The notes beneath the pieces are model-generated. The model ran no database searches and was not told where the DNA came from. It saw only the letters and a program-made list of their open reading frames with translations. Below are positions 10,183 to 62,205 of a DNA stretch of 64,000 nucleotides, in pieces (the first letter of the stretch is position 1; each line of letters opens with the position of its first letter). The position numbers and the translations under genes are program-made. Source of the DNA: Haliea sp. (GTDB lineage: Bacteria > Pseudomonadota > Gammaproteobacteria > Pseudomonadales > Halieaceae); the NCBI GenBank assembly GCA_016704305.1, contig JADJAL010000031.1, positions 148 through 64,147 on the forward strand, written 5' to 3'.

Positions 10183-11464
10183 CTAGATACCGAAAGTCCC
10201 CTTGAACATCAGGAAAAACACTATCGCCAGCGCCGCGCCCGCCGGCAGGGTGATGATCCACGAGACAAAGATGCTGCCGATGACCCCGAGGTTAAGCGCG
10301 CCTATGCCCCGCGCGAAGCCCACGCCCAGTATCGCACCGACCAGGGTGTGGGTAGTGGAGATCGGCAAGCCGGTGCCGGATGCGAAGACCACGGTGGCAG
10401 CGGCGGCCAGGGTCGCCGCGAACGCGCGACTTGGCGTCAGTTCGGTGATCTCGCTGCCTACGGTGAGAATCACTCGCCAGCCATAGGTAACCAGGCCCAC
10501 CACGATACCCACTGCCCCCACCAATAATATCCACCACGGCACGGCGGCGGTCGCTGCCACCGCACCGCCTGATTTTACCGTGCTGACAATAGCGGAGACC
10601 GGTCCAACAGCATTGGCGACATCATTGGAGCCATGCGCGAAGGCCATCGCGCAGGCGGTGAAAATCATCAACACGCCAAACACCCGCTCCACGGAGCGGT
10701 AACGGTGCATCTCATCCGGGACATCCTTGATCCTGCGCATGAGCACTACACCCAGGGCGGCCACCAGCAGCCCGGCGCCCACGGAGATGGGTACCGCGTT
10801 GGCAAACGTGCTGCCCAATCCCAGATCGATGTCCAGGCCGACATGTTTCAGGCCCTTGAGCAGTGTGACCATGGAGATCATGAAGCCCACCATCCACATG
10901 TACACAGGGATAACCCTTTTTGCGCGCTGGAACGGGTCGTGGGTATCGAGAATGAACACGTTGACGCTTTTGAACAAACTGTAGGCTATGGCGCCAGCCA
11001 GCAAGGGCGAGATCACCCAGCTGAGTGCAATCGAGCCCACCTGGCCCCAGTGCACCACACTCAGGAGAGATGCCCACGGCAACAAAGCCCACGATGGCGC
11101 CGACAATGGAATGCGTGGTCGATACCGGCCAGCCATTCATGCTGGCGATCAACAACCAGGTGCCCGATGCCAGTAACGCGGACAACATGCCGAAGACCAT
11201 CAACTCCGGGTGTCCGCTCATGACGTCGGCGTCGATGATGCCGTCGCGGATCGTCGCAGTGACTTCGCCGCCGGCAAAATACGCCCCGAGGAACTCAAAC
11301 ACCATCGCGATAATGAGCGCCTGCCGGAGCGTCAGGGCCTTGGAGCCCACGGACGTACCCATCGCGTTCGCCACGTCATTGGCGCCGATCCCCCAGGCCA
11401 TGAAGAATCCGAACACGCAGGCCATGATCAGGAAAATACTGCCGTGCTGGGCAATGATTTCCAT
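10183..11464 (-). CDS. Inorganic phosphate transporter, PiT family; frameshift near 11058
   Basis: GIGANDVANAMGTSVGS and PVSTTHSIVG in the N-half; AHGSNDVANA and PISTTH in the C-half, in different frames. Confidence 0.92.
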
Positions 11465-28933: not shown

Positions 28934-30356
28934 CTATTTAGGTGCTGTAACGGAAGTGGCCGTTGGCGCCGTCGGAGGCACGAGGAAAGAATCCAGCCTG
29001 AGCACGTCCTCCGGACTGAGCAATCCGGCCCGTTCCTTCAGGCGCATCAGGTTGAGCACATAATCGTAGCGGCTGTTGGCGTAATCGCGTTCCGCCTGGA
29101 ACAGGATATTCTGCGCGTTGAGCACATCGACCACGTTGCGGGTGCCCACTTCATAGCCGGCCTGGGTCGCGTCCAGCGAGCTTCTGGAGGAAATGATGCT
29201 CTGCCTGCGCGCGGCGATTCGCGACACATCGCTCAGCACGGTCATATGCAGCGAGCGGGTGCTGGTTACCGTGTTGCGCGTCAGGTTGATCAGTTCCTCG
29301 CGCGAGGCGTTGTATTCCTGGGCCGATTTACGCCGGTTGGCGCTGATCGCGCCGCCGCTGAACAGCGGCACGCTGACCTGGACCTGCCACATGTTTTCTT
29401 CGGAATTGCTGTCAGGTGGGTTGACGAAAGGCGAATCAGGCACTGATTCGACGCTACCGCTGACATCGAAGTTTGAGTACTCATAGCCGCCGGTGACTTT
29501 GGGGCATGTTCCATGCGGAAAGACTTGGCGTTCTGGCGTGACGCCTCCTCACGATACCGCGCCGCTTGCAGCTCGAAGTTGTTTGCCAGCGAGAAATCAA
29601 CCCAGGCGGCGCGATCAATCGGGTCCGGCGGCAGGATTTTAAAATCATCGACGAGTACGTTGAGGTTTGACTGTGGCTGGCCTGTCAGTACGGAGAGGCG
29701 CTCGAGAGCGACGGATACATTGTTTTCATCGACGATGCGGTTGACCTGTGACAGATCCCTCGCAGCCTGGGCCTCGTAGACATCGGTAATGGCGATCAGG
29801 CCGACTTCAAAACGCTGCTGGGTCTGCTCCAGTTGGCGTTCGAAAGCGCGCTCCTGCGCCTGGGACGCAGCCAGGTTGTCCTGGGCGCGCAGTACCAGCA
29901 GGTAGGCTTCCACCACCCGCACGATCAGATTTTGCTGGTTGGAGGCAAAGGTCGCCTCTGCTTCCTTGGTGACTTCCTTGCCGGATTGAAAGCTGAACCA
30001 TGCTGACAGGTCAAACAGGGACTGACTGAGCGACATCACATAGCCATCGGTATCGGTATTGAGGTTCGTGGCTGCCTGGCTCAGACGAGGTTGCCATTGA
30101 TATCTTCAACGATGCTTATCGCATCAGTATCGCCATCCGAGTGTTGGTAGGAGTAAGCAGTTGCTACCTGCGGCAGCAGCGCTGACCGCGCAAGATTCTC
30201 GGTTTCGCGCCTGGCCAGATAAACAGCTTCTTCCGCTTTTATCTGCGCGTCGTTCTCCAGCGCCAATTCATAAATGTCGCGCAGCGAGTCAGCCTGCAAA
30301 CTGACACATAAGAGGGAGAGTGTCAGCGACGAAAGCGCGACAAGCAGATTTTTCAT
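28934..30356 (-). CDS. tolC: TolC-family outer membrane protein; frameshifts near 30084 and 29502
   Basis: DSLRDIYELALEND, LSQSLFD, FEVGLIAITDV, YEVGTRNVVDVLNAQ across three frames. Position next to yqiB-cpdA-parE fits. Confidence 0.88.
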
Positions 30357-46625: not shown

Positions 46626-47738
46626 ATGCCAAGGCGCCCCGACACCGACGACTATCGAGCGCTATTCCTCAACCCCACACCCATGATGGACATGCGCGCT
46701 CCGACGGAGTTTGCGCATGGCGCGTTTCCCTCGGCGCTCAGCCTGCCGCTGATGAGCGACGAGGAGCGCGCGCTGGTGGGCACCTGTTACAAGCAGCGCG
46801 GACAGGCCGCGGCCATCGAGCTGGGCCATCAACTGGTCTGCGGCGAGGTGAAGGCGCAGCGCGTGGCGCAGTGGGCGGCCTTTGCCAACCAACACCCCCA
46901 GGGTTACCTGTATTGCTTTCGCGGCGGCCTGCGCTCGCAAACCGTGCAGCAGTGGCTGCGCGAGGCGGGTATCGATTACCCGCTGGTTATCGGCGGTTAC
47001 AAGGCCATGCGGCGGTTTCTGCTGGCGGAACTGGAGCGCTCGATTGCCCGTGCCGAATTCGTACTGGTCAGTGGCAAAACCGGTAGCGGCAAGACGCGGG
47101 TAATTTCCCGCCTCACGCGCGCCGTTGACCTGGAGGGACTGGCCAATCACCGCGGTTCCAGTTTTGGCCACCTGCTCACGCCCCAGCCCAGCCAGATCGA
47201 TTTCGAAAACCTTCTCAGCATCGCACTGCTGCGCTTGTTGGCGCAGGGCGACGAGCCGATTTTTCTTGAAGACGAGGGCCGCCTCATCGGCAGGCTGGTC
47301 CTGCCGGAATTGCTGCGCGGGAAAATGCGCAGCGCTCCCATGGTGGAGTTGGAGCAGAGCCTCGATGAACGCATTGATGTCGTGCTCGAGGACTACGTAG
47401 TCGACCTGGGAAAACGCTACGCACTGATGTTCGCGCAAGACGGCGCGCGACTGCACCGGGAGAAATTGCAGCAGAGCCTGGAAAAAATCAGCAGGCGCCT
47501 CGGTGGGCTGCGCTACCGGCAGGTCAGCGACATGCTGGACCTGGCGTTCGAGCGACAGTGGCAGGAGGGCGATGTGTCCGGCCACCGCCACTGGATTGCC
47601 GTGCTGCTGGAGCAGTACTACGACCCGATGTACGAATTCGAACTGGCCAAACGCAGCGGCGAGCGCCTTTTCAGCGGTGACCCGCAGACTGTGCTGCGCT
47701 GGATAGAGCAGGGAGTGCCGGGTGCAGCCCGCCGCTGA
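46626..47738 (+). CDS. mnmH: tRNA 2-selenouridine(34) synthase
   Basis: Rhodanese domain D.RAP.EF..G, VGTCYK, YCFRGGLRS, G.TGSGKT, DLEGLANHRGSSFG, YYDPMY. Confidence 0.95.
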   Translation: MPRRPDTDDYRALFLNPTPMMDMRAPTEFAHGAFPSALSLPLMSDEERALVGTCYKQRGQAAAIELGHQLVCGEVKAQRVAQWAAFANQHPQGYLYCFRGGLRSQTVQQWLREAGIDYPLVIGGYKAMRRFLLAELERSIARAEFVLVSGKTGSGKTRVISRLTRAVDLEGLANHRGSSFGHLLTPQPSQIDFENLLSIALLRLLAQGDEPIFLEDEGRLIGRLVLPELLRGKMRSAPMVELEQSLDERIDVVLEDYVVDLGKRYALMFAQDGARLHREKLQQSLEKISRRLGGLRYRQVSDMLDLAFERQWQEGDVSGHRHWIAVLLEQYYDPMYEFELAKRSGERLFSGDPQTVLRWIEQGVPGAARR

Positions 47739-49965
47739 ACTGCAACGCGACCTGGTACTGGTCGGCGGTGGCCACAGCCATGTGCTGGCAGTGCGCATGT
47801 TGGGCATGCGTCCGCTAGCGGGGCTTCGGATTACGCTGGTATCGCCCGCCAGCCACAGTCCCTACTCCGGGATGCTGCCCGGCCTGGTCGCGGGGCACTA
47901 TCGATTTGAACAGGCGCACATCGATCTGGCGCGCCTGTGCCAGTGGGCGGGGGTGCGATTTGTCGAGGCGGAGGTGACCGCTCTCGATCCCGCTATGCGG
48001 AGGCTTACATTGGCTGGCCGGCCCGCGTTGCACTACGACGTGGCCAGTATCGACATCGGGTCGCAGCCCGAGCTGGATACTGTGCCAGGCGCCAGGCGCT
48101 ATGCCACGCCAGTCAAGCCAGTGGCAGGATTGTGGCAACGCTGGCAGGCATTGTATGGACGTGTGGCTGGCCGAGTCGCGCCAGACCGGGCGCCAGACCG
48201 GGTCGCAGGCGAGGATTGTCGTATTGCGGTGGTAGGTGGCGGCGCCGGCAGTGTCGAGCTGGTGTTGGCGATGGCGAACCGCCTGCAGGACACGTTGGTA
48301 CACTTTGACCTGTGGTGCGCCGCCGCCACGATTTTGCCGGGCTACAACGCCCGCGCCAGGCAATCGGTGATGGCGGCGTTGGGACAGCGCGGCATCCGTG
48401 TGCATCTCAATGCGCGCGTCGCGGCAGTGGAGAGCCGCCACCTGATTCTGTCTGACGGCGCGCACGCCGCCTATGATGAACTGTTCTGGTGTACCGGCGC
48501 GGTGCCTGCCCCGTGGATTGCCGCCAGTGGCCTGGCCACGGATCAGCAGGGTTTTCTCGCGGTGCGCGACACCCTGCAGGCAACCCAGGATGACTGCGTG
48601 TTCGCCGCCGGCGATATCGCCGTACAGGTCAATCATCCACGGCCCAAGGCGGGCGTGTTCGCGGTTCGCCAGGGTCCCGTGCTCGCGCACAACCTGCGCG
48701 CCCTGTTGCTGGATCAACCGTTGCGCCAGCATCGGCCCCAGCGGCGATTCCTGTCCCTGATCTCGCTGGGCGCTGAACGGGCGACCGCGGAGAAGGGCGC
48801 GTTCAGCGCAACCGGCCGCTGGGTGTGGCGTTGGAAGGATGCAATCGACCGGGCGTTCATGGCGCAGTTTGAGAATTTACCCAACGCGATGGCGAGCCAG
48901 GAGCAGGACAGTTTGCCGCAGTTGCAGCATGCCTCGCAGCAGGCGGTTTGCGGCGGCTGTGGTGCCAAGGTCGGGGCTGACGCGCTCTCGGCGGCACTCG
49001 CGCAGCTGCGTCTGGACTACCCGCAACATTGTGTCGTGGCCGGAGATGACGCCGTCGCCGTGCCTGTACCGCAGGGCGCCATGCTGCTGCAAAGCCTGGA
49101 CGTACTGCGCCAGCTGGTTTCAGATCCCTGGCAAATGGGTCGCATAGCCGCGCAGCACGCCCTCAGTGATCTCTATGCCTGCGGGGCGCGCCCGGTGTCG
49201 GCACTGGCGGCGGCAACGCTGCCCTATGCCAACAGCGCGATGCTGCAGCGCGAGTTGCAGCAACTATTGGCAGGCGCCCTGCACGAGTTCGCCGCAGTGG
49301 ATTGTCGCCTGACGGGTGGACACAGCATGCAGGGCGCGGAGCTTGGCCTCGGCTTTGTGGTCAACGGCGTGCCGATGTCGGAGGATGGAAGATTGCTGTC
49401 CAAGATCGGCGCCCAGCCTGGAGATCAACTGATCCTGACCAAGGCGCTGGGTATCGGCACGCTGTTTGCCGCCCACATGCAGCTGGCGGCGGATGGACGC
49501 GACATCAGTGCTGCCCTGGCGTCCATGCTGCAGGGCAACCGCGAAGCAGCAATGCTGGCGGTGGCGCAGGGTGCGAGCGCCTGCACGGATATTACCGGCT
49601 TCGGCCTGCTCGGCCATTTGCTGGAAATGCTGGCAGGGGTGCGCGGAGCGCGCCTGTCCCTAGCGCAACTACCGGTGCTCGGCGGTGCGCTTGACCATCT
49701 GCGGGGCGGCATTGCCAGCACCATGCACGCGGCTAACGAGCGCAGCGCCAGGCAGTTGTATCAGCATTCTCCGTCGGTGGATGCGGCGCGCCTGCAGCTG
49801 TTGTTCGACCCGCAAACCAGCGGCGGCCTGTTGATTGCGCTTCCCCGGGAGCGAGGCCGGGCGCTGTGTGATGCCCTGCACCATGCGGGATATGCCGAGG
49901 CGCGCATCATCGGTGAAGTGACCGGGCGTGTAGACGGGAGCGCGGCTCCCGTCCACCTCGACTAG
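47722..49965 (+). CDS. selD: Selenide, water dikinase with an N-terminal pyridine-nucleotide-disulfide oxidoreductase domain
   Basis: LVGGGHSH, YSGMLPG, PKAGVFAVRQG, then CGGCGAKVG, GDDA, HALSDLYA.G, GGHS, DITGFGLLGHL, DPQTSGGLL. Confidence 0.93.
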   Translation: MQPAAELQRDLVLVGGGHSHVLAVRMLGMRPLAGLRITLVSPASHSPYSGMLPGLVAGHYRFEQAHIDLARLCQWAGVRFVEAEVTALDPAMRRLTLAGRPALHYDVASIDIGSQPELDTVPGARRYATPVKPVAGLWQRWQALYGRVAGRVAPDRAPDRVAGEDCRIAVVGGGAGSVELVLAMANRLQDTLVHFDLWCAAATILPGYNARARQSVMAALGQRGIRVHLNARVAAVESRHLILSDGAHAAYDELFWCTGAVPAPWIAASGLATDQQGFLAVRDTLQATQDDCVFAAGDIAVQVNHPRPKAGVFAVRQGPVLAHNLRALLLDQPLRQHRPQRRFLSLISLGAERATAEKGAFSATGRWVWRWKDAIDRAFMAQFENLPNAMASQEQDSLPQLQHASQQAVCGGCGAKVGADALSAALAQLRLDYPQHCVVAGDDAVAVPVPQGAMLLQSLDVLRQLVSDPWQMGRIAAQHALSDLYACGARPVSALAAATLPYANSAMLQRELQQLLAGALHEFAAVDCRLTGGHSMQGAELGLGFVVNGVPMSEDGRLLSKIGAQPGDQLILTKALGIGTLFAAHMQLAADGRDISAALASMLQGNREAAMLAVAQGASACTDITGFGLLGHLLEMLAGVRGARLSLAQLPVLGGALDHLRGGIASTMHAANERSARQLYQHSPSVDAARLQLLFDPQTSGGLLIALPRERGRALCDALHHAGYAEARIIGEVTGRVDGSAAPVHLD

Positions 49966-49991: not shown

Positions 49992-51420
49992 TTATGTGAG
50001 CGTTGCAAGGCCGCCTTCGTGGCGACCCGTTCTGCCCAGCAGATTGTTGTACTCCCTGGGGTCTACCGACAGGTCGTAGAGCTCTTCACCGCCGTCGGCG
50101 TAACGGGTCCAGCGCCATTTGCCGATGCGCGTCGAAACAGCGTCTCCCCAACGCATTTCTGCCGGGCGCCGGGCGGCGATCTCCGGTGTGATCCCCAGCA
50201 GGCTGGCGCCTTCAAATTGCGCTGGCTGCGCAATGCCCGCAAGGTCAGTCAGTGTGGGCGCCAGGTCGAGCAGGCTCACGGGCAGGTCGAAACTGCCGCC
50301 CGCCTCCACCCTGCCGGGGGCGCGGATAAGCAGCGGAATGCGGTTGGCGTGTTCCCACAGCGCCATCTTGTGCCAGTGCAGTTTTTCGCCCAGATGGAAG
50401 CCGTGGTCCGACCACAGGACGACGGCGGTGTTGTCGGCGTACGGGCTGGCGTCCAACGCGTCGAGTATCTGGCCCACCATGGCGTCGGTGTGACTGCACG
50501 CGGCCAGGTAGGCCTGCACATGTTGTGGCCACAATCCGGAATTCATCACCAATTCGTTCTGGGTGACTTCCCCGGACCCAAAATCCACAACAGGGAACCT
50601 GGCGAGTTTTACGCCTGCCAGTGGAATATCGTCCAGGTCATCCTGGCGCACTTCGGGTAGCACGACCTTGTCGATAGGATGCAGGTCAAAAGCCCATTGT
50701 GGCAGGCGCCAGGGGACATGGGGCTGGTACAGGCCGATGGCCATGAACCAGGGCTTGGTATGAGCTGACTGCAACTGTTCGATGGCGAAATCGGCTGAGA
50801 TCTGGTCGGCGTGCACTTCGCCGGGTGCCAGCACCCCATAGTCAAAAAGCGTTCCATGGTCGCCAAACGTGACGGGCGAATCCTTGTAGGGCAGGAAAAC
50901 ATCCCACAAACGCTTGGTACCCATTGCCCAGTGGAAGACCTTGCCGGTGGATATCGTCTCGTATCCCGCCTGCGAGAAAAAATGCGGCAACGGGAACAGC
51001 GTTGGTGATTTCATCAGCTCCCCCATAGGCGGCGGTGTCATCGGTCTCATGCACGTTTGTCGTTTCGGGGCGCAGTCCCCACATCGCGGAAGCGCGGCTG
51101 GCAATGCACACCGGCACGGAGCAGTAGGCGCGATTGAAGGAGTATGACTGCGCGCGCAGCCGATCAATATTGGGCGTATGCACACCGGGATGCGCGTCGA
51201 GGTAGCCGACCCAGTCGTTCAGGTCGTCAACACACAGCAGCAGAATATTGGGCTTTTCGCCCATACCGGGTGTGGCAGGCTTGGGTGCAGTGTTGGCGGT
51301 CACCGGACCAGTTGCAGCATCGTCGACTTTGCCCGATGAAGAACGATTGCAGCCAACCACTGCCGCGGCGGCTGCCGCAGCGACAGCTGCCGAGAGAAAT
51401 TTTCGTCGATGGATAACCAT
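49992..51420 (-). CDS. Sulfatase (iduronate/choline-sulfatase-like), Tat lipoprotein; frameshift in the C-run near 51020
   Basis: HRRKFL...VVGC, NILLLCVDDL, CIASR, GKVFH, PHVPW, SDHGFHLGEK, RIPLLI. Confidence 0.9.
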
Positions 51421-53848: not shown

Positions 53849-54042
53849 GGGCGATTGCTCCTTTTATTTATTGTATGGATCACAGCTCAGCCAGAGCTCA
53901 GGAGTATCGCATTCCGCTCGCATGTTGTCATTTTCCGGGACAAATCCCCGGCACAAATGCGGCCCAAAAAGAGTGTGAATTTCGCGGAACAGCCCTTATA
54001 GTCTGTTGTCCTATACCTTCCCTTTTGCCATCAAATTTAGTT

Positions 54043-55381
54043 ATGAATGACAGATTGAAAATACTGCTTCTCCTCGTTATAGGCGCGCTGTTCCAGACCG
54101 GCTGTGGCACTGAAGCCGCGTATAACGAGGAAAGTTTTTCCAGCGACAGCCCGTTCAAGCTGAGAGTCGATGGCGACATCGAAGCGGCCTGCGAAAGCGC
54201 GCGTCGGTCCCTGCTCGGGCAGGGTTACCTGATAGACCTCGCCAGCAGCGAGGAGGTCAAGGGCCGCAAGGCTGCGAGGGTAGAAGGCCAACAGAACGCC
54301 TTTATCGAGATGACAGTCGTATGCGTGCCCGAGCGCGGTGGCAGCACCGTTTTTGCCACCGGCGTGCTCAGCACCTATGACCTGAAGAAAAACAGCAGCT
54401 CCGCCAGTGTCGGCCTCAGTGCGCTGGGCTCCATATCGCTCCCCATCGGGCAGAGTGTCGATTCCCTGGTCAAAGTCTCGGAGCAGACGATTGATGACAA
54501 GGAATTCTACAAGCGTTTTTTCAGCGCAGTCGAAACCATACTGGGTGAGATGCGTATCCGCGAAGCAGACGATGATCCGGCTACAGAGCCTGCACAGGAG
54601 AGCACAGCGCAGGAAGCGGGCCAGCCGGTAGCCCAGCCCAGGATCTGGCCAGAGCTGTTTCCCGAGCAGAGCGCATCCGCGCAGGAGATCTGCGCAGGAC
54701 GCATCCGCGCAGGACGCATCCGCGCAGGACGCATCTGCGGTTACGCCCCCGCCTTCCGCAGAGCAGGCAGCGCCCGAAGCCGTGCCAGCGGTGGCTCCTG
54801 CCCCGGTGGCGCCGGTAACCGCGCCCGAGGTGGCTCCTGTCCCGGTGGCGCCAGTAACCGCTCCCGAAGTGTCCCCTGCGCCGGTGGCCGTTCCGGAGCC
54901 TGCCCCGCAGGTAGCGCCTGTAGTGATAGCGCCAACGCCCGCGCCAGAGGCGCCTGCGCCCGCGCCCGCTCCGGAGGCTCAGCCATCTCCAATTCCACCG
55001 ACACCCACTGTGAATGAAGCGCTGCCCGGGATTGCGCCGACACCTGCTTTGAACGAGGCGTCGCCGGCGGTTGTGCCGGCGCCTGCCGTGAGCGAGGCGC
55101 CGGCCGCGATTGCGCCGCCGCCTGTCGCAGTTGAAGCGCCTGCGGAAGTGATGCCGACAGCTGTCCCGGACGCGGCGCCGGTCGCGATGGAGCCAGCTGT
55201 ATCGTCCGCGCCGGCAACATCCACCGTCGCGGCGCCGGAGCTGGCCCCCGTGCAGGTGACGGCGGTGCGAAAAACCACCCCGGTACCTGCTGTCGAGCCA
55301 CAGTCAGCGCCAGCAGTTGCGCCGCAAGATCCATCAATCGCGCCGCAAGATCCCGCAACCAAAATCAACGGTCTTTTCTAA
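54043..55381 (+). CDS. DUF2242-family lipoprotein with a long Pro/Ala/Val/Glu-rich C-terminal stalk; frameshift near 54688
   Basis: QTGC lipobox, ACESARRSLLGQGY, SASVGLSALGSISLPI, VKVSEQTI.D..FY..FF. Low-complexity ORF 54782..55381 continues it. Confidence 0.78.
54673..54875 (+). repeat. Coding tandem repeats: 15-bp (gcgcaggacgcatcc, AQDAS) and about 33-bp (VAPxPVAPVTAPE)
   Basis: 15-mers at about 54692-54736; gtggctcctg.cccggtggcgcc.gtaaccgc.cccga twice at about 54791-54868. Confidence 0.8.
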
Positions 55382-55470: not shown

Positions 55471-56706
55471 CTAATAGCCGTAGCGACGCCTGATAGCCGC
55501 AAAGCGCTCGTGCAGCTGCGCCAGCCGTTCTTGCGCCGAAACGGTTGCCGTATCGTCGGGCAGTGCGCCGGCCAATCCCTGCAATTTCACTGTCTTTGTG
55601 CTAAATGCCGTGGTCGTAGTGCTCAGCAGGTTGCGATACGTAACGTTGCCGCGCACCAGGCCCTGCGTGTCCAGCCAGTTGTGATAGCCGGGGTCCCGGT
55701 GGCACAGGATCAGCCGCACCTTGCCATCGCTATTCACAGTTGTACGAGCGGGGGTGTAACTCACCGGGCGGTACAGGTAATCGAGGCTGTTAAAAAACAC
55801 CCCTGCGTTGGAGATCATCCAGAAACTGTCCGGCGCCTCGAACTCAATAATCAACGCGTCGTCTTCCTGCAGCTCCCAGCACATATGCGCGATCGCGCGT
55901 CCACGGCGCTGGTCGGCCGCGTCGCTCTGCTGCGCAGGGTCGGGCGGAAAGCGGTTGACGTTGGCGGGATCGACGAACGGACTGTAGTGGTAGGGATGGT
56001 CCGGCCAGTCATCCATCAGCGCGACGACAAACCGTCCTGCCCACTCCATCGCCTCGATGAGCGCCTCCGGTGTGGGCGACGGTTTGGGTTCCTCCATGCC
56101 GACGCGCTCGATGTTCAGGCGCGCGGGCAGTTCATCCCAGCGATCAAAACCCTGGCGCAAAAACAGTTTGCGCGTATTGGGCGTGCTCGGCAGCCAGTTG
56201 GGGCCGCGCTCGGGGCCGCCGATGTACAGCTCGAAGTTGCCGTGCTCGTCGGTGGCGAGCTGGTGCCCGAACAGGTTGGCCTCGGGAATATCGCCAAATG
56301 GATCGTGCAGGCTGGGCCAGTCGGTGCCCGGCTGCTTGTCCGGGCGCTGGCCCTGCACTGTGAAATTGATAAAGCGCGCGCTGCCGCGATTGCCGGAGAT
56401 GCGGTAGACCGACTGGCCGTCAATCCACGCCTGCAGGTAGAGGAAATCGGCGGCGTCACCGCCGAGTTTGCGCGTCGGTGTGCAAAACGGGTGCAGCGCC
56501 GGGTAGCGTGTGTCGCGCGTCTCCAGCGCCAGGTCAAACGCCTGCCCGAGATTCTGCGTCAGGAAGCGGAACGCGTCGACGCGGTGTGCGGGTGTTGCCG
56601 GGTTGTAGTCCTTGAACACGCGATCACCGGCCGCCTCCAGATTCCTGCAGAACGCTTTCCAGGCGTCCTGCAACGGCAGGTCAGAGGGCTCGTCACCGAA
56701 TGCCAC
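55471..56706 (-). CDS. DUF1214-domain protein
   Basis: AWKAFC..LE.AG, RKLGGD.AD..Y.QA.IDG..VYRISG.RG, FELYIGG, GYHNWLDT.G. Confidence 0.8.
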   Translation of the reverse strand: MAFGDEPSDLPLQDAWKAFCRNLEAAGDRVFKDYNPATPAHRVDAFRFLTQNLGQAFDLALETRDTRYPALHPFCTPTRKLGGDAADFLYLQAWIDGQSVYRISGNRGSARFINFTVQGQRPDKQPGTDWPSLHDPFGDIPEANLFGHQLATDEHGNFELYIGGPERGPNWLPSTPNTRKLFLRQGFDRWDELPARLNIERVGMEEPKPSPTPEALIEAMEWAGRFVVALMDDWPDHPYHYSPFVDPANVNRFPPDPAQQSDAADQRRGRAIAHMCWELQEDDALIIEFEAPDSFWMISNAGVFFNSLDYLYRPVSYTPARTTVNSDGKVRLILCHRDPGYHNWLDTQGLVRGNVTYRNLLSTTTTAFSTKTVKLQGLAGALPDDTATVSAQERLAQLHERFAAIRRRYGY

Positions 56707-56739
56707 TGGCGTGCTTCCCGGCGTCTTGCGTTGTGCGTT

Positions 56740-57590
56740 GTGGGTACATTGGTGTGTTGGCTCCCGCGACTACCGATCAGGCCCAGTGCATTCAACATGC
56801 CGCTGAGGTTGGCGACAGCCCGCTGCGCCGCCTGCAGATTGCCCTCCTGTTCAATGCGCGGGCCCAGCAATTCCAGGTCGAAGGCGCCTTCGTAGCCGGC
56901 ATCCAGCAGCCATTGCAGCAGGGTCGGCAGTGGTATCGCGCCGTCTCCCGGCACCGCGCGCGACGGTAGTGAGCGATCCCCCAGTACGTAATCGCTGACC
57001 TGCACCAGGTGGCAGCGCGGCACGGCGAGCTCAATCAGTGACTTGAGATCGGCCTCGGTCCAGCAGCCGCATATATCGATGCACACGCCGATGCCGGCGA
57101 GCTCGGCCAGCGTGATCGTGTCGCGCAATGTGTGGGCGATATGCAGGTCCGCGTACTGCGGCGGCGCGTTTTCAATCATCAGCGCGATGCCGGCCCGGTG
57201 CGCCTCGTCGACGCAGGGTGCTATCGCATTGGCAAACGCCTTGGCCGCCTGCTCCCAGCTTAACGCGCCGCGCCCGCCGGTGGTCATGTAAATCGACTTC
57301 GCGCCCAGTTGCTTTGCCGTGGCAATGCGGGCGGACAGGTTGGCGCGCGCCTGCGCCAGAATGCCGTCGTCCGAATCGAGCGGGTGCGCGGACGAGAACG
57401 GGTGCACGACCGTTTCCAACTGGAAGTTTCCGGCCGCCAGCGCGGCCTGCACCAATGCCCCGCTCTCGCCGTCCAGTTGCGGCCCGAGCACGCTGAAGCG
57501 TTTGGCGCCGATCAGCGGCCAATACGCGAGCTGCTGGCTGATCTCCTCGCGCATGAAGCAAATGTTGTTCATCGAGACTCTGGGGTGCAT
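56740..57590 (-). CDS. Sugar-phosphate isomerase/epimerase (xylose-isomerase-like TIM barrel); 3' end uncertain
   Basis: LMIE, IDI..CW.E, LVQVSD, RAVPGDG.IP, FDLELLG. As sequenced it runs about 150 bp into the next gene. Confidence 0.8.
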
Positions 57591-57625
57591 GTGGTGGATC
57601 TCCTGTACGCGAGTAAATACCTGCG

Positions 57626-58822
57626 CTACGCGTGGCGCTGTTCGATGCGCTGTTCGATGGTAAGGTCAAAGCGCTGTCGATACGGGGCGAACTCGCGGTG
57701 TAGTTCGTCGATGTCGACGCCGATCATAGCGGTGGAATACACGAACTTGCCATAGCGATCGCCGCGGTTGTTTTTCAGGTAGTCGCGCATCGCCTGCTCG
57801 CCCGCGCCAGACAGGCTGATGCCGGCAAAGGCATAGAACCTGGCGATGGTGGCGACCGGGTCGGCAACAAAGTCGCTATAGCGCACATGTAGAATCCGCG
57901 CATCGTCCACCAGCGGGTTGTCCAACGTAGAGCGAATGCCTGCGCGGGTCGCCGCCAGGTGAATGGCCGCCTGTTCCTCCACGTTGACGCGGCCGGAAAA
58001 TGCCCTGGTTAGCGTCGCTGCCATTGCAATGCGAGACGCGGTGACCTGCACGGGATCGCGGTGAATCCAGATCAGGCGGGCATCGGGATAGGTATCGAAA
58101 AACGCCTGCAGGCGCGGCCCGTGAAAGCCTTTCAGTGCCCAGCGCTTTTTCGGCTGTCCAGCATGATCGCCATGCTGGCAGTGCTGCAGCATCATCCGGT
58201 GAATGCGGTATTGCGCGTGGGCGTCGGTAGGCAGCCCGCCGACGAACATGCCAATCGGCGCCCGCCACCACGCCGTTGGCGTCAGCACCCGAAAATCGAA
58301 GGCCCAGGTGCGCTCGCACTCCGGCAGGCCATTGCCGAGCATGTCGTTGTAGGGATGGATTTTCAGCCAGTCGGGCGCGATGGCGTTGATCTCGCGCCAG
58401 TCCGCGTCGGCGCGCGCGCGGCGCGGATCGTCAGCAGCTGCCAGGCCAGGCACGGGCGAGGGATACATCACTTCCCAGAAGCGCAGCGAGCGCGAATCCG
58501 GGTCCACCGACAGCAGCGCGTGCAGCAAGGTCGTGCCGGAACGCGGTTCGCCGGTTACGAACAGCGGCCTGTCGATGACCTCAGCGGCCAGCCCGGGCGT
58601 TCGCTTGTGGTCCTCAAAAAACTGCAGGCGCGAGGTGAGCAGCCCGTGGCAGATCGCGGCGGCAGCCCGTTGCCCTTCGGATGTCATGTTGATTTTGCGC
58701 AGTTGCTCGACGGCGAGCGCGAAGCGTTCAGGGAGAGTATCGTCGCCGAAATCAGTGAGGCCGGTGTGCTGCCGGGCCTCGCGCAGCAGGTATTCGGCAT
58801 CCAGTATTGCGCGTTCCGCCAC
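57626..58822 (-). CDS. Sulfotransferase (mycobacterial Stf-like)
   Basis: RPLFVTGEPRSGTTLLH (5'-PAPS loop), WALKG.H, IWIHRDP, VRYSDFVADP. Confidence 0.9.
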   Translation of the reverse strand: MAERAILDAEYLLREARQHTGLTDFGDDTLPERFALAVEQLRKINMTSEGQRAAAAICHGLLTSRLQFFEDHKRTPGLAAEVIDRPLFVTGEPRSGTTLLHALLSVDPDSRSLRFWEVMYPSPVPGLAAADDPRRARADADWREINAIAPDWLKIHPYNDMLGNGLPECERTWAFDFRVLTPTAWWRAPIGMFVGGLPTDAHAQYRIHRMMLQHCQHGDHAGQPKKRWALKGFHGPRLQAFFDTYPDARLIWIHRDPVQVTASRIAMAATLTRAFSGRVNVEEQAAIHLAATRAGIRSTLDNPLVDDARILHVRYSDFVADPVATIARFYAFAGISLSGAGEQAMRDYLKNNRGDRYGKFVYSTAMIGVDIDELHREFAPYRQRFDLTIEQRIEQRHA

Positions 58823-58825
58823 CGC

Positions 58826-59944
58826 TTATTGCCCGCACAGCTTCAGCAGTTCATCCTCGGTGGCCCGCACTTTGGCCGCTGACAGCGCGCCGTACTTGAG
58901 CCCCGCCATGCCGCCGTAGTCGAGGATCTTGGGGACGCGCAGACCGGCATCGACAAACGCCTTGATCTGTTTCGCGACCTGCTGCGGCGTACCGTGAGGC
59001 AGCACGGCGAGGATCGCCTCGGGCTCCACTTTCGCCAGCATCTCAAGCACGCGCTCGCGGGTGAGCACGCCTGGATCGATATCCTGGAAGCCGCCCCAGT
59101 TCTCGCCCATCGGGTGCTTGAAGCCGAACGCCTTCAGCGCCGACGCGGAAATCTGCAGAATCCAGGATTTGATCAGCGGCGCCTGCAGGATTTCCTGTAG
59201 CTCACTTTCGTCGCCAATCAGGCAGGTCATGATGAACGCGGGCACGATCCCCGTCGGGTCGCGTCCGGCCTCGTCCGCCGCGGTGCGTATCACCTTCAGC
59301 TTCGCCGCATAGTCCTCCGGTGTCCACGCGCCGGCAGGCCACCAGCCGTCGGCATAGCGCCCGGTGAGTTGCAGCATGCGCGGGCCGCTGGCGCCGATCC
59401 AGATTTTGGGATAGCGGCCCCGGTAGGGTTCGGTGTCCATGCGCGCGTGATGCAACTGGTAGAACTCGCCGCTGAAATCCACCGGCCAATCGCTGTCCCA
59501 CAGCAGGCGGATCACCTTCAGCGACTCTTCGAAGCGGCTGACGGGCCGCGCGTAGTCAAAGCCATACGGCACGGTGTTCTCGCTCTCGCCGCTGCCGACA
59601 CCGAGGATGAAGCGCCCACCGGACAGATGGTCGATGGTCAGCGCCGTCTGCGCGAGCGACGAGGGATGCCGGCGCACCGTATCGACCACGCTGCTGGCGA
59701 TCGGCACATTCTTGGTCAGCACGGCGGCCGCCGCCGCTACCGCCAGCCCGTCCAGGTGCCGGTGCGGCGAGGGCGATATCGTTGCCAGCTCGGTAAATTC
59801 CGGCGTCCAGATCGAGTCCGGCCAGAAGCTCACCATGTGATCCGGCAACCAGATGGAATGGTAGCGACCGCTGTCCAGCACATCGAGCTGGCTCAGGTCG
59901 AACGGCAGGGTGGTGCGCAAAAACGCGGCAGGCTGGACTTTCAT
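58826..59944 (-). CDS. LLM-class flavin/deazaflavin oxidoreductase, Rv2951c (phthiodiolone ketoreductase)-like
   Basis: WLPDH, RRHP..LAQ, GRFILGVGSGE.EN..PYG, PVSRFEE.L..IR.LW, PYRG..P.IW, GPRML..TGRYADGW. Confidence 0.85.
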   Translation of the reverse strand: MKVQPAAFLRTTLPFDLSQLDVLDSGRYHSIWLPDHMVSFWPDSIWTPEFTELATISPSPHRHLDGLAVAAAAAVLTKNVPIASSVVDTVRRHPSSLAQTALTIDHLSGGRFILGVGSGESENTVPYGFDYARPVSRFEESLKVIRLLWDSDWPVDFSGEFYQLHHARMDTEPYRGRYPKIWIGASGPRMLQLTGRYADGWWPAGAWTPEDYAAKLKVIRTAADEAGRDPTGIVPAFIMTCLIGDESELQEILQAPLIKSWILQISASALKAFGFKHPMGENWGGFQDIDPGVLTRERVLEMLAKVEPEAILAVLPHGTPQQVAKQIKAFVDAGLRVPKILDYGGMAGLKYGALSAAKVRATEDELLKLCGQ

Positions 59945-60360
59945 GCCTTGTTCTGCGCTGATGTCATATCCAGCCGCAGGCGGGTCAACACCAGCGTTCG
60001 AATACGCCAGTGGTTGCCAATCTTCGCGTAGGTCTCGGTGTAGTGGCCGAAACCATGCAGCTCGCGGCCATCGGGCCAGCGCAGCATGTCCTCCATCGCC
60101 CAGATGCCGTTCGCGGTCGTGGGTGAGGTCAGTTCTATTTCCGGCATATGGCCGTGATGCACGGTCAGCACGTCGCCGATAACGCTCTGCAGGAAGCTGA
60201 CGCAGTTGTCGGCCCCGGTAATCACGCTGCCGCCAGAGGCGGTTGAATCCATCACCACGTCATCGCAGAAGACCTGCCGCATAGCGGGCCAGTCCTTGGT
60301 ATCCATCGTGCGGAAGTAGCGCGCTTTTAGCTGCTTGATGGCCTCGATATCATCGTGCAT
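59941..60360 (-). CDS. NTF2 / SnoaL-like protein (BaiE/LinA type)
   Basis: DIEAIKQLKARYFR.MDTKDW, TVHHGHMPEI, GIWAMED, G.GHY.ETY. Confidence 0.9.
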   Translation of the reverse strand: MHDDIEAIKQLKARYFRTMDTKDWPAMRQVFCDDVVMDSTASGGSVITGADNCVSFLQSVIGDVLTVHHGHMPEIELTSPTTANGIWAMEDMLRWPDGRELHGFGHYTETYAKIGNHWRIRTLVLTRLRLDMTSAQNKA

Positions 60361-60405: not shown

Positions 60406-61979
60406 TTACTGGCTGATCGCGTCGTAACAACTGCACGGGTCAACGGAATTCATGTCACACCAGACGGCACAGGATTCCACGGCTATCCAGTACACGAAAT
60501 CCATGTAGCGTATCTCCCCGCTCTGTTGTTTGACCGTGGATTTACCGTGGCAGGCGTTGCAGTTGGAACGCTCGTAGGACTCCATCGAGCTGTTGCCCAG
60601 GAACGGCCGGGTTTGGCCCTCGGGCGAGGAAACTGCTATTTGCGGCCGCTGCAGGGGCCGGCTGGTATTGCTGTCGGCAAATTCAGGCGCCGCGTTGGCA
60701 CAGCCGACCGGTGGCGTGGGGAATACAAACCACTGAGTTGATACCAGTTGATAGTTGCTCCACACGGATTGATCGCCCAGCAGTCCGGCAAAGGTGTTAT
60801 TCCACTGGTCTGCGGTGGGGTAGTTCTCCGCCAGTGGCACCTGGCGGCACAGCTGCGATTTTCCCGCGACGCTGGCCGGCGGTTGATCCAGGCACCAGCC
60901 AACCTGATCCTGGCCCGGCTCCGTGACGCACACGCTCAGTGGGTCGTTGGTAGCGGGGCTGATATTGCACTCGGCACAACTGCCGTCCGCGCAGTCCGGC
61001 GCGGTAAAGTGGTAATTCTGCGCCAGCGTGCTGGCCCCGGGACAGTTGGGATTTACCGTGGGGCCGTTGCCCTGCGATCCCGCTGGCGGCAGTCCGCCAC
61101 AATCCGGCGCGTTGTCCTTGTGTTCAAACGTCGACCACGTCCAGCTGGGCTGCTTCAGGGTTTTGTGCGCGATGTGCATGCCAACCAGAGCCATGGACTT
61201 AAGCTCGCAGGAAGCCGTGCCAGTGCTGCTGCGATAGGCGGGCGTGAACACCAGCAGATCTTCCCTGTGGTAATTCACGTTGGTGAGACCCTGCTCCATC
61301 CACGCCAGCTTCACTTCATAGGTGCCGGATCGTGGGTCGGCGGGATCACCGCCGGTATAGGATTCTTCGCCGCACAGGTTCGCGACGTCCTCGCTCATCG
61401 TGTACAGGTTGTTCCAGTCATAGTAGCGCTTGTCGACGGCGTGCTTGTAAAACGCCGGATTGACCAGGATTTCATAGCGCACAAAGCCACCCTGTGACGT
61501 AAGTACCGGTTGGTTCGACAGGCCGCCAGTCTGCGCTTCGAGAAACTGTCATCGGCTTTGTTCGCGTTATCGAGCACGCGGTACTGCGTATGATTTTCCA
61601 CCGCCTGGCATTCTGGCGGGTAGTAACGCGTGCCTGACCTGGCGCAATCGCCGTCCGGGCAGACGCAATCCTCATCGTCGAGGTTGCAGCGGATCAGGTC
61701 ATACGTAGAGGACCAGGCGCTGTATTGAGTTGGATTGTCACCGTACAGCGATACGCGCGCGCCGACTTCCGGCGCGTTCAATGCGAGAAACGTCTGCCAC
61801 GAATAGTGGTCGATGCCGATTTGCGTGTTGTCCGGAATATCGCCGGGCAACACATAGGCGAGTGCCGGGTCCGGGCTTGGGGCGTTCGGGTTATTGCTGT
61901 CGCTGCAGGCGGTCAGGAATGTGCCCGGCAGTGAGATCAGCAGGCAAGTGAGCAACAGCAAGGAAGATGATCGATTCAT
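60406..61979 (-). CDS. Cys-rich lipoprotein with one C-terminal CXXCH (putative monoheme cytochrome c); frameshift near 61545
   Basis: LTAC lipobox, YSWQTFLALN, LVGMHIAHKT, WTWSTFEH, NYQLVSTQW, NSSMESY...CNACH. Adding one T joins the two ORFs. Confidence 0.72.
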
Positions 61980-62205
61980 ATGATTCCCCTTCATTATTAG
62001 TGTGTCTTGATGCAGGAAAGCTGCCTGCGAACGCCGGGATATGCACAGGCAGTTTAACATCGTGTTTTATGACATGGCATGAATTCCTGCACGCCATCAC
62101 CACGCATCCATCGACATGCGACCACGTGAGTTGCAGGGTTATTTTGGCAGGCGCCGCGCATTGGGGAAGATTGATAATGCGCTACACGCGTTTCCTGGCT
62201 GCAAT

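What the first reader, a model, noticed from the sequence alone, without database searches (positions are those of the whole stretch)
55471..60360. Actinobacteria-like operon: SnoaL protein, Rv2951c-like reductase, sulfotransferase, TIM-barrel isomerase, DUF1214
Seen in sequence: five co-directional genes with overlaps or gaps of 3-35 bp. Established: Rv2951c is an F420H2-dependent ketoreductase of a long-chain lipid; mycobacterial Stf enzymes sulfate lipids using PAPS; BaiE/LinA-type NTF2 proteins are dehydratases or dehydrochlorinases. Inference: this is an undescribed pathway that reduces a keto group on a hydrophobic substrate (lipid, steroid or xenobiotic) and then sulfates the hydroxyl. 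If the reductase uses F420, that would be unusual for a gammaproteobacterium.
Basis: partly seen in the sequence, partly recalled or inferred. Interest (0 to 1): 0.7.

Follow-up and report, generated by a model that had tools for sequence, protein, structure and literature searches.

The report
Conserved F420-linked sulfotransferase gene cassette
The five genes are a real operon whose four-gene core (a deazaflavin-type reductase, a sulfate-adding enzyme, an isomerase-like barrel and an unknown protein) recurs in the same order in hundreds of bacteria from four phyla, in some of them inside the genes that make cofactor F420, yet nobody has described what it does.

Summary
Five co-directional minus-strand genes lie at 55471-60360: a BaiE-like SnoaL protein, a luciferase-like (LLM) oxidoreductase, an Stf1/STF9-type sulfotransferase, a xylose-isomerase-like TIM barrel and a DUF1214-superfamily protein.

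The last four form a cassette. It keeps the same order in 69 of 82 genomes from Gammaproteobacteria, Alphaproteobacteria, Verrucomicrobia and Actinomycetota, at 58-89% identity (TIM barrel 42-73%). The SnoaL gene is a Halieaceae-specific add-on. The 148-nt TIM/DUF1214 overlap comes from 2 nt missing in this assembly.

The LLM is F420-type. Its best curated and solved relatives are all F420 enzymes, and the Adf-like DH..W and GSGE.N motifs are invariant. In seven related loci the cassette directly adjoins, or is embedded in, fno, cofC, cofD, cofE and fbiC.

F420 genes do occur beside this cassette in Gammaproteobacteria.

Still inferred are the substrate, the order of reactions (reduce then sulfate), a PAPS source, and F420 synthesis in this particular organism.

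No paper I could find describes the cassette. I rate it a new variant of known kinds, with moderately high interest.

The parts
59941..60360 (-). SnoaL_4 / NTF2-fold protein (139 aa), BaiE-like putative dehydratase. It is a lineage-specific accessory gene.
   Evidence: Pfam PF13577, 92 bits. The best solved relatives are bile-acid 7-alpha-dehydratases BaiE, 4leh at 5.9e-19, with the YFRxxD and GHxPEI stretches conserved. It lies directly upstream of the LLM gene only in L004, L005, L007, L008, L009 and the P0004 contig. Its stop overlaps the LLM start as ATGA.
58826..59944 (-). Luciferase-like (LLM) oxidoreductase, 372 aa. It is of the F420-dependent hydride-transferase type and belongs to no curated subfamily.
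   Evidence: PF00296, 186 bits. The top 18 NCBIfam hits are F420 LLM families, but all fall below their cut-offs (best TIGR03619, 128 against 166.9). The ten best solved relatives are all F420 enzymes: Mer, Adf, fHMAD and FGD. D35-H36...W41 and G117-S-G-E120-x-E-N123 are invariant across phyla and align with the 'DHFHPW' and 'GAGEAMNE' stretches of Adf. JGI names orthologs 'phthiodiolone/phenolphthiodiolone dimycocerosates ketoreductase'; NCBI names them 'LLM class flavin-dependent oxidoreductase'.
57626..58822 (-). PAPS-type sulfotransferase, 398 aa, mycobacterial Stf1/STF9-like.
   Evidence: PF13469, 99 bits. It aligns over its full length to PDB 2zq5 and 2z6v at about 1e-30. The 5'-phosphosulfate loop GEPRSGTT and the 3'-phosphate motif HRDPVQVTAS are invariant in 23 orthologs. 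More than 2000 relatives were found, and 481 stretches in species-representative genomes.
56777..57590 (-). Xylose-isomerase-like TIM barrel (271 aa in relatives). As assembled, the ORF reads on to 56559 because 2 nt are missing at 56781/56782.
   Evidence: PF01261, 83.5 bits. There are only weak NCBIfam hits to hydroxypyruvate isomerase, fructoselysine 3-epimerase and similar families. The PDB best hit is 7vpf at 3e-13. The alignment with four homologs shows the extra 72-aa tail. The 2-nt insertion appears in all four metagenome runs. The gene is absent from 10 of 82 related loci.
55471..56706 (-). 411-aa protein of the DUF1214 / VPA0735-like superfamily; function unknown.
   Evidence: Pfam DUF1214, 22.9 bits, below the gathering score of 25. 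PDB 6ans (Burkholderia cenocepacia, uncharacterised) matches at 2.7e-41 by sequence and at TM 0.64-0.71 against the AlphaFold model. Next come the structural-genomics proteins VPA0106 and VPA0735. About 175 positions are invariant in 32 orthologs. Sources name it 'hypothetical' or 'DUF1214 domain-containing'.
56781..56782 (.). Site of a 2-nt deletion relative to four related environmental populations; it removes the TIM gene's stop codon.
   Evidence: read laying shows 'CA' put in behind 56781 in every contig from runs X1-X4. A second indel of the same kind lies at 51020 in a sulfatase gene. This suggests assembly error rather than biology.

Best explanation
The region is one operon. Its core is a self-contained, horizontally mobile four-gene metabolic module: LLM, then sulfotransferase, then TIM barrel, then DUF1214-like protein.

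Proposed roles:
- The LLM is a deazaflavin (F420/F420H2)-dependent hydride transferase of the alcohol-dehydrogenase/ketoreductase type.
- The sulfotransferase transfers sulfate from PAPS to a hydroxyl group of the same metabolite.
- The TIM barrel is a metal-dependent keto-enol isomerase, epimerase or dehydratase. It is an optional helper, missing in about one locus in eight.
- The DUF1214-like protein performs a further, still unknown step, or binds the substrate.

The most likely chemistry is an F420H2-driven carbonyl/alcohol redox step coupled to O-sulfation of a small, probably hydrophobic (lipid-, isoprenoid- or steroid-like) molecule. In the Halieaceae version a BaiE-like dehydratase is added.

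Shown: gene content, conservation, intact cofactor motifs, and physical linkage to F420 genes in relatives.
Inferred: the substrate class, the direction and order of the steps, and that this organism makes F420 and PAPS.
For: Operon structure:
- Junctions of -4, +3 and +35 nt, with ribosome-binding sites.
- A 179-nt metatranscriptome contig spans the sulfotransferase/TIM junction. Other RNA contigs hit the SnoaL, LLM and sulfotransferase genes.

Conservation:
- The order LLM-ST-TIM-D1214 recurs in 69 of 82 loci from four phyla, at 58-89% identity for LLM, sulfotransferase and DUF1214-like protein and 42-73% for the TIM barrel.
- The flanking genes differ between lineages. The window's own flanks are found in no other locus.

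F420-type LLM. Cofactor use is clade-coherent in this class (PMC8518648).

F420 linkage. NCBIfam equivalog hits above their cut-offs, in seven loci and at least four different arrangements, identify FbiC/CofGH (1089-1118 against 1018), CofC (110-121 against 105), CofE (248 against 181), CofD (299 against 257) and Fno (179-205 against 150):
- L027: fno-cofE-[cassette]-cofC-fbiC, with the cofC start overlapping the D1214 stop.
- L030 and L085: [cassette]-fno/cofC-fbiC.
- L032: fbiC-[cassette].
- L021 and L024: divergent fno-cofC(-fbiC).
- L044: cofE-cofD-ST-D1214-fno-cofC-fbiC.

PAPS motifs are intact.

Hydrophobic-substrate hint: the recurring neighbours are SDRs (35 loci), P450s of four unrelated families (15 loci), acyl-CoA dehydrogenases, acyl-CoA ligases, aldehyde dehydrogenases and MaoC hydratases. 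The accessory gene is BaiE-like.
Against: - No substrate is identified.
- The LLM passes no curated F420-family cut-off and is only 26% identical to a bona fide TIGR03619 member.
- None of the roughly 25 Cellvibrionales/Halieaceae loci, nor the 64-kb window, shows F420 or PAPS genes. F420 supply in this organism is therefore unproven.
- The neighbouring catabolic genes are variable and not orthologous between phyla, so the 'hydrophobic substrate' reading is weak.
- Characterised members of the TIM-barrel family act on sugars, cyclitols and hydroxy-acids, not lipids.
- L044 has the sulfotransferase and the DUF1214-like gene inside an F420 operon without any LLM. The F420 link may therefore not run only through the LLM.
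- The AlphaFold models are of modest quality (pLDDT 70 and 62).
Confidence: 0.55

Rival explanations
1. Sulfate activation for removal of a hydroxyl group, as part of catabolism. The sulfotransferase acts first and turns an unactivated alcohol into a good leaving group. The sulfate is then eliminated by the TIM barrel or the DUF1214-like protein, or displaced or followed by an F420H2-dependent reduction by the LLM. The net reaction is dehydroxylation of a lipid or steroid-like growth substrate.
For: - The context is often catabolic: SDR, P450, acyl-CoA dehydrogenase, CoA ligase and MaoC hydratase genes.
- A BaiE-like dehydratase lies next to the cassette in Halieaceae. A SnoaL_4 gene lies downstream in L085, and 38%-identical SnoaL-like matches lie a few kb downstream in L026, L040 and L074.
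- Fno sits beside the cassette, implying a supply of reduced F420H2, that is, a reductive role.
- Sulfate as a leaving group is established chemistry in the CurM sulfotransferase-thioesterase pair (own knowledge).
Against: - There is no precedent for this in bacterial catabolism.
- No paper on steroid or bile-salt degradation that I searched mentions a sulfotransferase.
- It costs one PAPS (two ATP equivalents) per hydroxyl.
- Neither the TIM barrel nor the DUF1214-like protein has a known lyase relative.
Confidence: 0.18
2. Sulfated sugar or cyclitol synthesis. The LLM works like the F420-dependent sugar-phosphate dehydrogenases (FGD/FSD), the TIM barrel isomerises or epimerises next to the resulting carbonyl, and the sulfotransferase sulfates a carbohydrate hydroxyl. 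The product would be a sulfated solute or glycolipid head-group.
For: - The weak NCBIfam relatives of the TIM barrel act on sugars, keto-sugar acids and hydroxy-acids, and NCBI names its ortholog 'sugar phosphate isomerase/epimerase'.
- FGD and FSD are among the LLM's solved relatives.
- The mycobacterial enzyme Stf0 sulfates trehalose (own knowledge; PMC3141025).
Against: - The TIM barrel is missing from 10 of 82 loci while LLM and sulfotransferase stay.
- No glycosyltransferase, sugar kinase or sugar transporter recurs near the cassette.
- The nearest LLM relatives are Mer-type and fPKR-type (type A), not FGD.
Confidence: 0.12
3. The cassette acts on the deazaflavin itself. It would make or recycle a modified cofactor, for example a sulfated FO/F420 species or an alternative side-chain precursor, rather than merely using F420.
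For: - In L027 the cassette is inserted between cofE and cofC-fbiC.
- In L044 the sulfotransferase and the DUF1214-like gene sit between cofD and fno-cofC-fbiC with no LLM or TIM gene.
- Variant F420 side chains are known in Proteobacteria (PMC8498797).
Against: - Mycobacteria carry the cassette away from their fbi genes.
- Most carriers (about 75 of 82 loci) show no F420 gene nearby.
- Only 1 of 80 metagenomic fbiC loci has the cassette.
- Client enzymes are commonly placed beside cofactor genes. Unrelated LLM paralogs sit next to cofC-fbiC in many of those 80 loci.
Confidence: 0.08
4. The LLM is an FMN-dependent two-component monooxygenase and the cluster serves sulfur scavenging or xenobiotic oxidation. 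The similarity to F420 enzymes would then be only ancestral.
For: - NCBI's pipeline names the orthologs 'LLM class flavin-dependent oxidoreductase'.
- No curated F420 cut-off is reached.
- The cassette occurs in lineages not generally known as F420 producers, such as Verrucomicrobia and Legionellales.
Against: - FMN families score far lower (at most 65 bits) than F420 families (up to 128 bits).
- No flavin reductase gene recurs nearby.
- The verrucomicrobial (L021), alphaproteobacterial (L032) and gammaproteobacterial (L024, L027, L030, L044) carriers have F420 genes right beside the cassette.
Confidence: 0.05

Closest known systems
Rv2951c (fPKR, F420H2-dependent phthiodiolone ketoreductase) followed by the Rv2952 methyltransferase in mycobacterial PDIM synthesis
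   Same: An LLM of the same F420 class (type A in PMC8518648). JGI transfers this name to the orthologs. The logic is the same: reduce a ketone, then cap the new hydroxyl.
   Different: - The capping enzyme here is a sulfotransferase, not a methyltransferase.
- No pps/mas polyketide genes lie nearby.
- The mycobacterial orthologs occur in non-tuberculous species.
- Direct identity to Rv2951c could not be measured because no sequence was at hand.
- It is not a member of any curated F420 LLM family.
Mycobacterial Stf sulfotransferases: Stf1 (PDB 2zq5), STF9 (2z6v), and the Cyp128-Stf3 pair that makes sulfomenaquinone S881
   Same: Same fold and length, the same PAPS-binding motifs, and a full-length alignment. 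As with Cyp128-Stf3, a redox enzyme that creates or exposes a hydroxyl is paired with a sulfotransferase (PMC3141025; the Cyp128 detail is from my own knowledge).
   Different: - The similarity is distant (about 110 bits, about 1e-30), so these are paralogs, not orthologs.
- The substrates of Stf1 and STF9 are themselves unknown.
- The partner here is an F420-type LLM, not a P450.
- The family is spread over four phyla.
F420-dependent secondary alcohol dehydrogenase Adf, hydroxymycolic acid dehydrogenase fHMAD and Mer (solved LLM structures)
   Same: These are the best solved relatives. The His/Trp and Gly-x-Gly-Glu-x-x-Asn active-site stretches are shared.
   Different: Only a part of the protein aligns locally (bit scores 64-82). 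There is one extra residue between His and Trp. The physiological substrate is unknown.
BaiE / Hsh2-type 7-alpha-hydroxysteroid dehydratases (for the SnoaL gene only)
   Same: The SnoaL_4 fold, an E-value of 6e-19, and conserved YFRxxD and GHxPEI stretches. Such dehydratases serve bile-salt degradation in Sphingomonadaceae (PMC12175502).
   Different: There is no steroid-degradation cluster around it in the window. The gene is present only in the Halieaceae version of the operon.
DUF1214/DUF1254 structural-genomics proteins (6ANS, VPA0106, VPA0735)
   Same: Sequence and fold similarity.
   Different: None has a known function. The Pfam DUF1214 hit is below threshold. No DUF1254 domain was detected.

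Membership tests
Class I (TIM-barrel, luciferase-like) F420-dependent oxidoreductases | Bac_luciferase fold | tested here: met
   PF00296, 186 bits against a gathering score of 27.9.
Class I (TIM-barrel, luciferase-like) F420-dependent oxidoreductases | Closer to F420 clades than to FMN clades | tested here: met
   The 18 best NCBIfam hits are F420 families (54-128 bits), while FMN families reach at most 65 bits. The ten best PDB hits are all F420 enzymes.
Class I (TIM-barrel, luciferase-like) F420-dependent oxidoreductases | Reaches the curated cut-off of a named F420 LLM family | tested here: not met
   The best hit is TIGR03619 at 128.4 bits, below its cut-off of 166.9. It is 26% identical to a true TIGR03619 member. 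It is therefore a subfamily of its own.
Class I (TIM-barrel, luciferase-like) F420-dependent oxidoreductases | Catalytic His/Trp and Glu(/Asn) of the F420 alcohol dehydrogenases | tested here: met
   D35-H36...W41 and G-S-G-E120-x-E-N123 are invariant in 30 orthologs from four phyla. The GSGE.N stretch aligns with 'GAGEAMNE' of Adf, and the His/Trp stretch resembles Adf's 'DHFHPW' by inspection. The catalytic role of these residues is taken from my own knowledge of Adf and FGD1.
Class I (TIM-barrel, luciferase-like) F420-dependent oxidoreductases | Occurs with F420 biosynthesis genes | tested here: inconclusive
   Met in seven related loci, where fno, cofC, cofD, cofE and fbiC are adjacent. 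Not seen in the window or in any Cellvibrionales locus. The whole genome was not available.
Class I (TIM-barrel, luciferase-like) F420-dependent oxidoreductases | Binds and uses F420 | not testable with these tools
   This needs purified protein.
Rv2951c / fPKR orthologs (phthiodiolone ketoreductase) | Orthology and a PDIM-locus context | tested here: not met
   No polyketide or mycocerosate genes lie in any of the 82 neighbourhoods. The carriers include Proteobacteria and Verrucomicrobia. Only the JGI name points to Rv2951c. Direct identity was not measured.
PAPS-dependent sulfotransferases of the mycobacterial Stf1/STF9 type | Sulfotransferase fold over the full length | tested here: met
   PF13469, 98.7 bits. 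It aligns over residues 8-392 to 2z6v and 12-379 to 2zq5.
PAPS-dependent sulfotransferases of the mycobacterial Stf1/STF9 type | 5'-phosphosulfate-binding loop and 3'-phosphate-binding motif | tested here: met
   GEPRSGTT (91-98) and HRDP...AS (254-263) are invariant in 23 orthologs and aligned with the same motifs of Stf1 and STF9.
PAPS-dependent sulfotransferases of the mycobacterial Stf1/STF9 type | A PAPS source (APS kinase) in the same genome; sulfotransfer activity | not testable with these tools
   No cysC or cysDN lies in the window. The genome was not available.
Xylose-isomerase-like TIM barrel (AP_endonuc_2) | Domain present and ORF intact | tested here: inconclusive
   The domain is present (83.5 bits). 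The stop codon is lost in this assembly through a 2-nt deletion that four related populations do not have.
DUF1214 / VPA0735-like superfamily | Pfam DUF1214 domain | tested here: inconclusive
   The window protein scores 22.9 bits, below the gathering score of 25, though many orthologs carry the precomputed PF06742 hit. Fold match to 6ANS is TM 0.64-0.71, and to VPA0106/VPA0735 TM 0.31-0.40.
BaiE-like 7-alpha-hydroxysteroid dehydratases | SnoaL_4 fold with the Tyr/Asp/His catalytic residues | tested here: met
   PF13577, 92 bits. Y-F-R-x-x-D and G-H-x-P-E-I are aligned and conserved with BaiE. Which residues are catalytic is from my own knowledge of BaiE.

The most novel reading that the evidence does not exclude
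The cassette is not just a client of F420 but is functionally tied to the cofactor itself. Either the sulfotransferase and the DUF1214-like protein make or recycle a modified (for example sulfated) deazaflavin, or the DUF1214-like protein is a new class of F420-dependent enzyme. The pointers are L044, where these two genes alone sit between cofD and fno-cofC-fbiC, and L027, where the whole cassette is inserted into the F420 operon.
Probability: 0.1. Interest if true: 0.85.

Novelty: new variant of a known kind. Interest (0 to 1): 0.62.

Why it matters
A 2021 review of F420 notes two gaps. No F420-dependent enzyme from bacteria outside the Actinobacteria has been studied experimentally. And it is unknown why Proteobacteria make the cofactor at all (PMC8498797).

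This cassette is a concrete candidate client that bears on both:
- It is strongly conserved (about 60-89% identity across four phyla for three of its four proteins).
- It was found in at least 481 stretches of species-representative genomes.
- It is transcribed in wastewater and biofilter communities.
- In several Gram-negative lineages it is fused into the fno, cofC, cofD, cofE and fbiC operon.

It also enlarges the 'eukaryote-like' Stf sulfotransferase family, so far discussed as a mycobacterial speciality, into a widespread environmental family with a fixed set of partner enzymes. And it gives the first functional handle on a DUF1214-superfamily protein. Finding the sulfated product would define a new F420-dependent pathway.

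Tried and rejected
- Exact-sequence look-ups of the window's sulfotransferase and LLM found nothing.
- The plasmid collection holds no ortholog of the cassette. The best hits are 30% (sulfotransferase) and 37% (LLM), and these are paralogs. I therefore dropped the idea of a plasmid-borne island.
- The P450 genes near the cassette looked like a conserved partner, but they belong to four unrelated families at 24-32% identity between lineages. I rejected them as part of the unit.
- ino1 and a second LLM next to some mycobacterial copies are just local mycobacterial synteny.
- I found no sequence rule in the papers held that separates F420 from FMN binding. The non-prolyl cis-peptide is shared by both. 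Two key papers are not held.
- Literature searches for the cassette, DUF1214 function, F420 in Halieaceae, or sulfotransferases in steroid degradation gave nothing relevant.
- The AlphaFold model of the LLM was too poor (pLDDT 62) for a fold search.
- Rfam, tRNA and promoter/terminator scans found nothing informative.
- Reverse test: of 80 metagenomic fbiC loci only one carries the cassette. The cassette is therefore not the general reason for F420 in Gram-negative bacteria.

Full report
**The observation**

Five minus-strand ORFs occupy 55471-60360.
- SnoaL_4 (59941-60360).
- Bac_luciferase (58826-59944).
- Sulfotransfer_3 (57626-58822).
- Xylose-isomerase-like TIM barrel (from 57590).
- A 411-aa protein (55471-56706) with a sub-threshold DUF1214 match.

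The junctions are a 4-nt ATGA overlap, a 3-nt gap and a 35-nt gap with an AGGAG box.

The fourth junction is odd. As assembled, the TIM ORF has 343 codons and overlaps the next gene by 148 nt, while its homologs stop at 268-278 aa with '...LGA*'. Contigs of close relatives (90-99% alike) from four independent wastewater, activated-sludge and biofilter metagenomes all carry two extra bases after + strand position 56781. With them the gene ends LGA-stop at 56777-56779.

A second indel private to the window lies at 51020 and splits a sulfatase gene. Several other genes in the window look truncated. The missing stop is therefore most likely an assembly error.

The rest of the window is ordinary gammaproteobacterial chromosome: ilvD, glnE, rml genes, rdgC, folE and others. 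Its G+C content is similar throughout.

**Conservation**

The sulfotransferase has more than 2000 relatives. The best 120 are 65-95% identical and mostly come from marine and wastewater Cellvibrionales.

A scan of one genome per species found 481 stretches encoding a relative. The best 80 come from these groups, all at 61-78% identity:
- Halieaceae and other Cellvibrionales
- Steroidobacteraceae, Solimonas and Salinisphaerales
- Sphingomonas and Sphingobium
- Acetobacteraceae
- Verrucomicrobia
- many Mycobacterium and Mycolicibacterium

I ran tblastn of the window's five proteins on all loci. The order LLM, sulfotransferase, TIM, DUF1214-like, on one strand, appears in 69 of 82 distinct loci.
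- The LLM is missing once.
- The TIM barrel is missing ten times.
- The DUF1214-like gene is missing about five times.
- The SnoaL gene is adjacent only in the five closest Halieaceae loci, plus one further contig.

Flanking genes differ between lineages, and the window's own flanks occur next to no other copy. The four genes therefore behave as a self-contained module.

A neighbour-joining tree of the three best-conserved proteins shows three things:
- All Actinomycetota fall in one clade.
- The window falls inside a Halieaceae/Cellvibrionales clade.
- Verrucomicrobia and one Halioglobus fall in several places.

This means transfer among Gram-negative lineages, but no recent import from Actinobacteria into this genome. 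No ortholog lies on any plasmid of PLSDB.

**The parts**

*Sulfotransferase.* It aligns over its full length with the two solved mycobacterial enzymes 2zq5 and 2z6v (Stf1 and STF9; the names are from my own knowledge). It keeps the 5'-phosphosulfate loop (GEPRSGTT) and the 3'-phosphate motif (HRDP...AS), which are invariant in orthologs.

*LLM.* It reaches no curated family cut-off. However, its 18 best NCBIfam hits and ten best solved relatives are all F420 enzymes: Mer, Adf, fHMAD and FGD. Its D-H...W and G-S-G-E-x-E-N stretches match the catalytic stretches of the F420 alcohol dehydrogenase Adf and never vary across phyla. JGI names the orthologs after Rv2951c; NCBI uses the generic flavin name. 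In the published phylogeny of this class, Mer and Rv2951c (type A) and FGD, Adf and fHMAD (type B) form F420-only clades (PMC8518648).

*DUF1214-like protein.* It matches an uncharacterised Burkholderia structure (6ANS), both by sequence and in its AlphaFold model. It matches the VPA0106 and VPA0735 structural-genomics proteins more distantly. Nothing of known function matches.

*TIM barrel.* It has only weak relatives among sugar and hydroxy-acid isomerases and epimerases.

*SnoaL protein.* It resembles bile-acid 7-alpha-dehydratase BaiE (E = 6e-19) with the key Tyr/Asp/His stretches conserved.

**The F420 link**

While naming recurrent neighbour families I found an 826-aa double radical-SAM protein next to the cassette. 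NCBIfam identifies it above the curated cut-off as the bifunctional FO synthase CofGH/FbiC.

Following this up gave six genome loci in at least four arrangements:
- **L027** (gammaproteobacterial MAG): fno, cofE, LLM, sulfotransferase, TIM, DUF1214-like, cofC, fbiC, all on one strand. The cofC start codon overlaps the stop of the DUF1214-like gene.
- **L030** (Steroidobacteraceae): the cassette followed by fno, cofC and fbiC.
- **L044** (Steroidobacteraceae): cofE, cofD, sulfotransferase, DUF1214-like, fno, cofC, fbiC. This locus has no LLM and no TIM barrel.
- **L032** (Acetobacteraceae): fbiC directly upstream of the LLM.
- **L021** (Verrucomicrobia) and **L024** (Salinisphaerales): a divergent fno-cofC(-fbiC) unit a few kb upstream. 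In L024 this unit also includes a true TIGR03619 F420 LLM.

A reverse scan of metagenomes with FbiC added **L085**: TetR, fno, a second sulfotransferase, an unknown gene, the cassette, cofC-fbiC, a MaoC-like hydratase, an SDR and a SnoaL_4 gene. The other 79 fbiC loci lack the cassette.

An F420 gene set is a few kb in a genome of several Mb. Six hits among about 50 non-actinobacterial 17-kb loci is therefore far above expectation; this is my estimate, and the loci are partly related. The result ties the cassette to F420, and it shows that Gammaproteobacteria, Alphaproteobacteria and Verrucomicrobia carrying the cassette can make and reduce the cofactor.

For the window's own lineage the link is only by homology. 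No F420 gene lies in the window or within 8 kb of the cassette in any Cellvibrionales locus.

**How it most likely works**

*Shown:*
- An operon, with some transcription in situ, including one RNA contig across the sulfotransferase/TIM junction.
- An F420-type hydride transferase with an alcohol/ketone-type active site.
- A sulfotransferase with intact PAPS motifs.
- Two conserved partners of unknown chemistry.

*Inferred:* the LLM and the sulfotransferase act on the same molecule, one creating or consuming a hydroxyl and the other esterifying it with sulfate. The nearest logical precedents are:
- Rv2951c followed by the methyltransferase Rv2952 in PDIM synthesis.
- Cyp128-Stf3 in sulfomenaquinone synthesis.

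The substrate class is open. Variable neighbours (SDRs, four unrelated P450 families, acyl-CoA enzymes) and the BaiE-like accessory gene hint at a lipid- or steroid-like compound. The TIM-barrel family hints at sugars or cyclitols.

Three alternatives remain, and L044 keeps the third alive:
- Sulfate serves as a leaving group for dehydroxylation.
- The product is a sulfated carbohydrate.
- The module acts on the deazaflavin itself.

An FMN monooxygenase role is now unlikely.

**Comparison and novelty**

Each domain family is known. The LLM and the sulfotransferase are new subfamilies: each is below the cut-offs of, or only distantly similar to (about 1e-30), its nearest described relatives.

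Searches of the held literature found no description of the cassette, of a DUF1214 function, or of any F420-sulfotransferase link.

I file it as a new variant of known kinds: an F420-linked sulfation module. It matters because F420-dependent enzymes of Gram-negative bacteria are unstudied and the role of F420 there is an acknowledged open question (PMC8498797).

Noticed in passing
window 50842-51420 and 49992-51185 (minus strand), indel at 51020: A sulfatase gene is split into two overlapping ORFs. All four related metagenome populations lack one base at 51020, so the window has a private 1-nt insertion, probably an assembly error.
   Followed up: yes
window 60406-61482 and 61395-62060 (minus strand): Two overlapping ORFs directly upstream of the operon have no Pfam or NCBIfam match. 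The second starts with a lipoprotein-like signal, and the first ends with a CxxCH motif. They are probably one gene broken by an indel. No homolog lies beside the cassette in any other locus.
   Followed up: partly
window 306-1739, 10183-11136, 29290-30039: ilvD (N-terminal domain only), a PHO4 phosphate transporter and an outer-membrane efflux protein all look truncated relative to their Pfam models. This fits an indel-prone assembly.
   Followed up: no
window 47722-49965 (+): A fusion of a pyridine-nucleotide-disulfide oxidoreductase domain with AIR-synthase-related (SelD-like) domains, 747 aa.
   Followed up: no
window 53875-55381 (+): A DUF2242 protein whose 3' part, in two overlapping frames, encodes a long Pro/Ala/Val-rich low-complexity tail. 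It converges on the end of the operon.
   Followed up: no
L085 2773-4952 and L024 4419-6579: Between fno and the cassette lie a second Sulfotransfer_3 gene, only about 27% identical to the cassette's, and a conserved 343-aa gene with no family match. The two loci are 74% and 68% identical for these genes. L004 also has a second sulfotransferase, next to SDR and P450 genes.
   Followed up: partly
L044 6160-14474: A complete F420 operon (cofE, cofD, fno, cofC, fbiC) has only the sulfotransferase and the DUF1214-like gene inserted in it, without LLM or TIM barrel.
   Followed up: partly
L086-L088, L100, L115, L125, L126, L155 and other metagenomic fbiC loci: Unrelated LLM paralogs (25-38% identical to the window's) often sit within a few kb of cofC-fbiC. 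Placing F420 client enzymes beside the biosynthesis genes therefore seems common in these bacteria.
   Followed up: no
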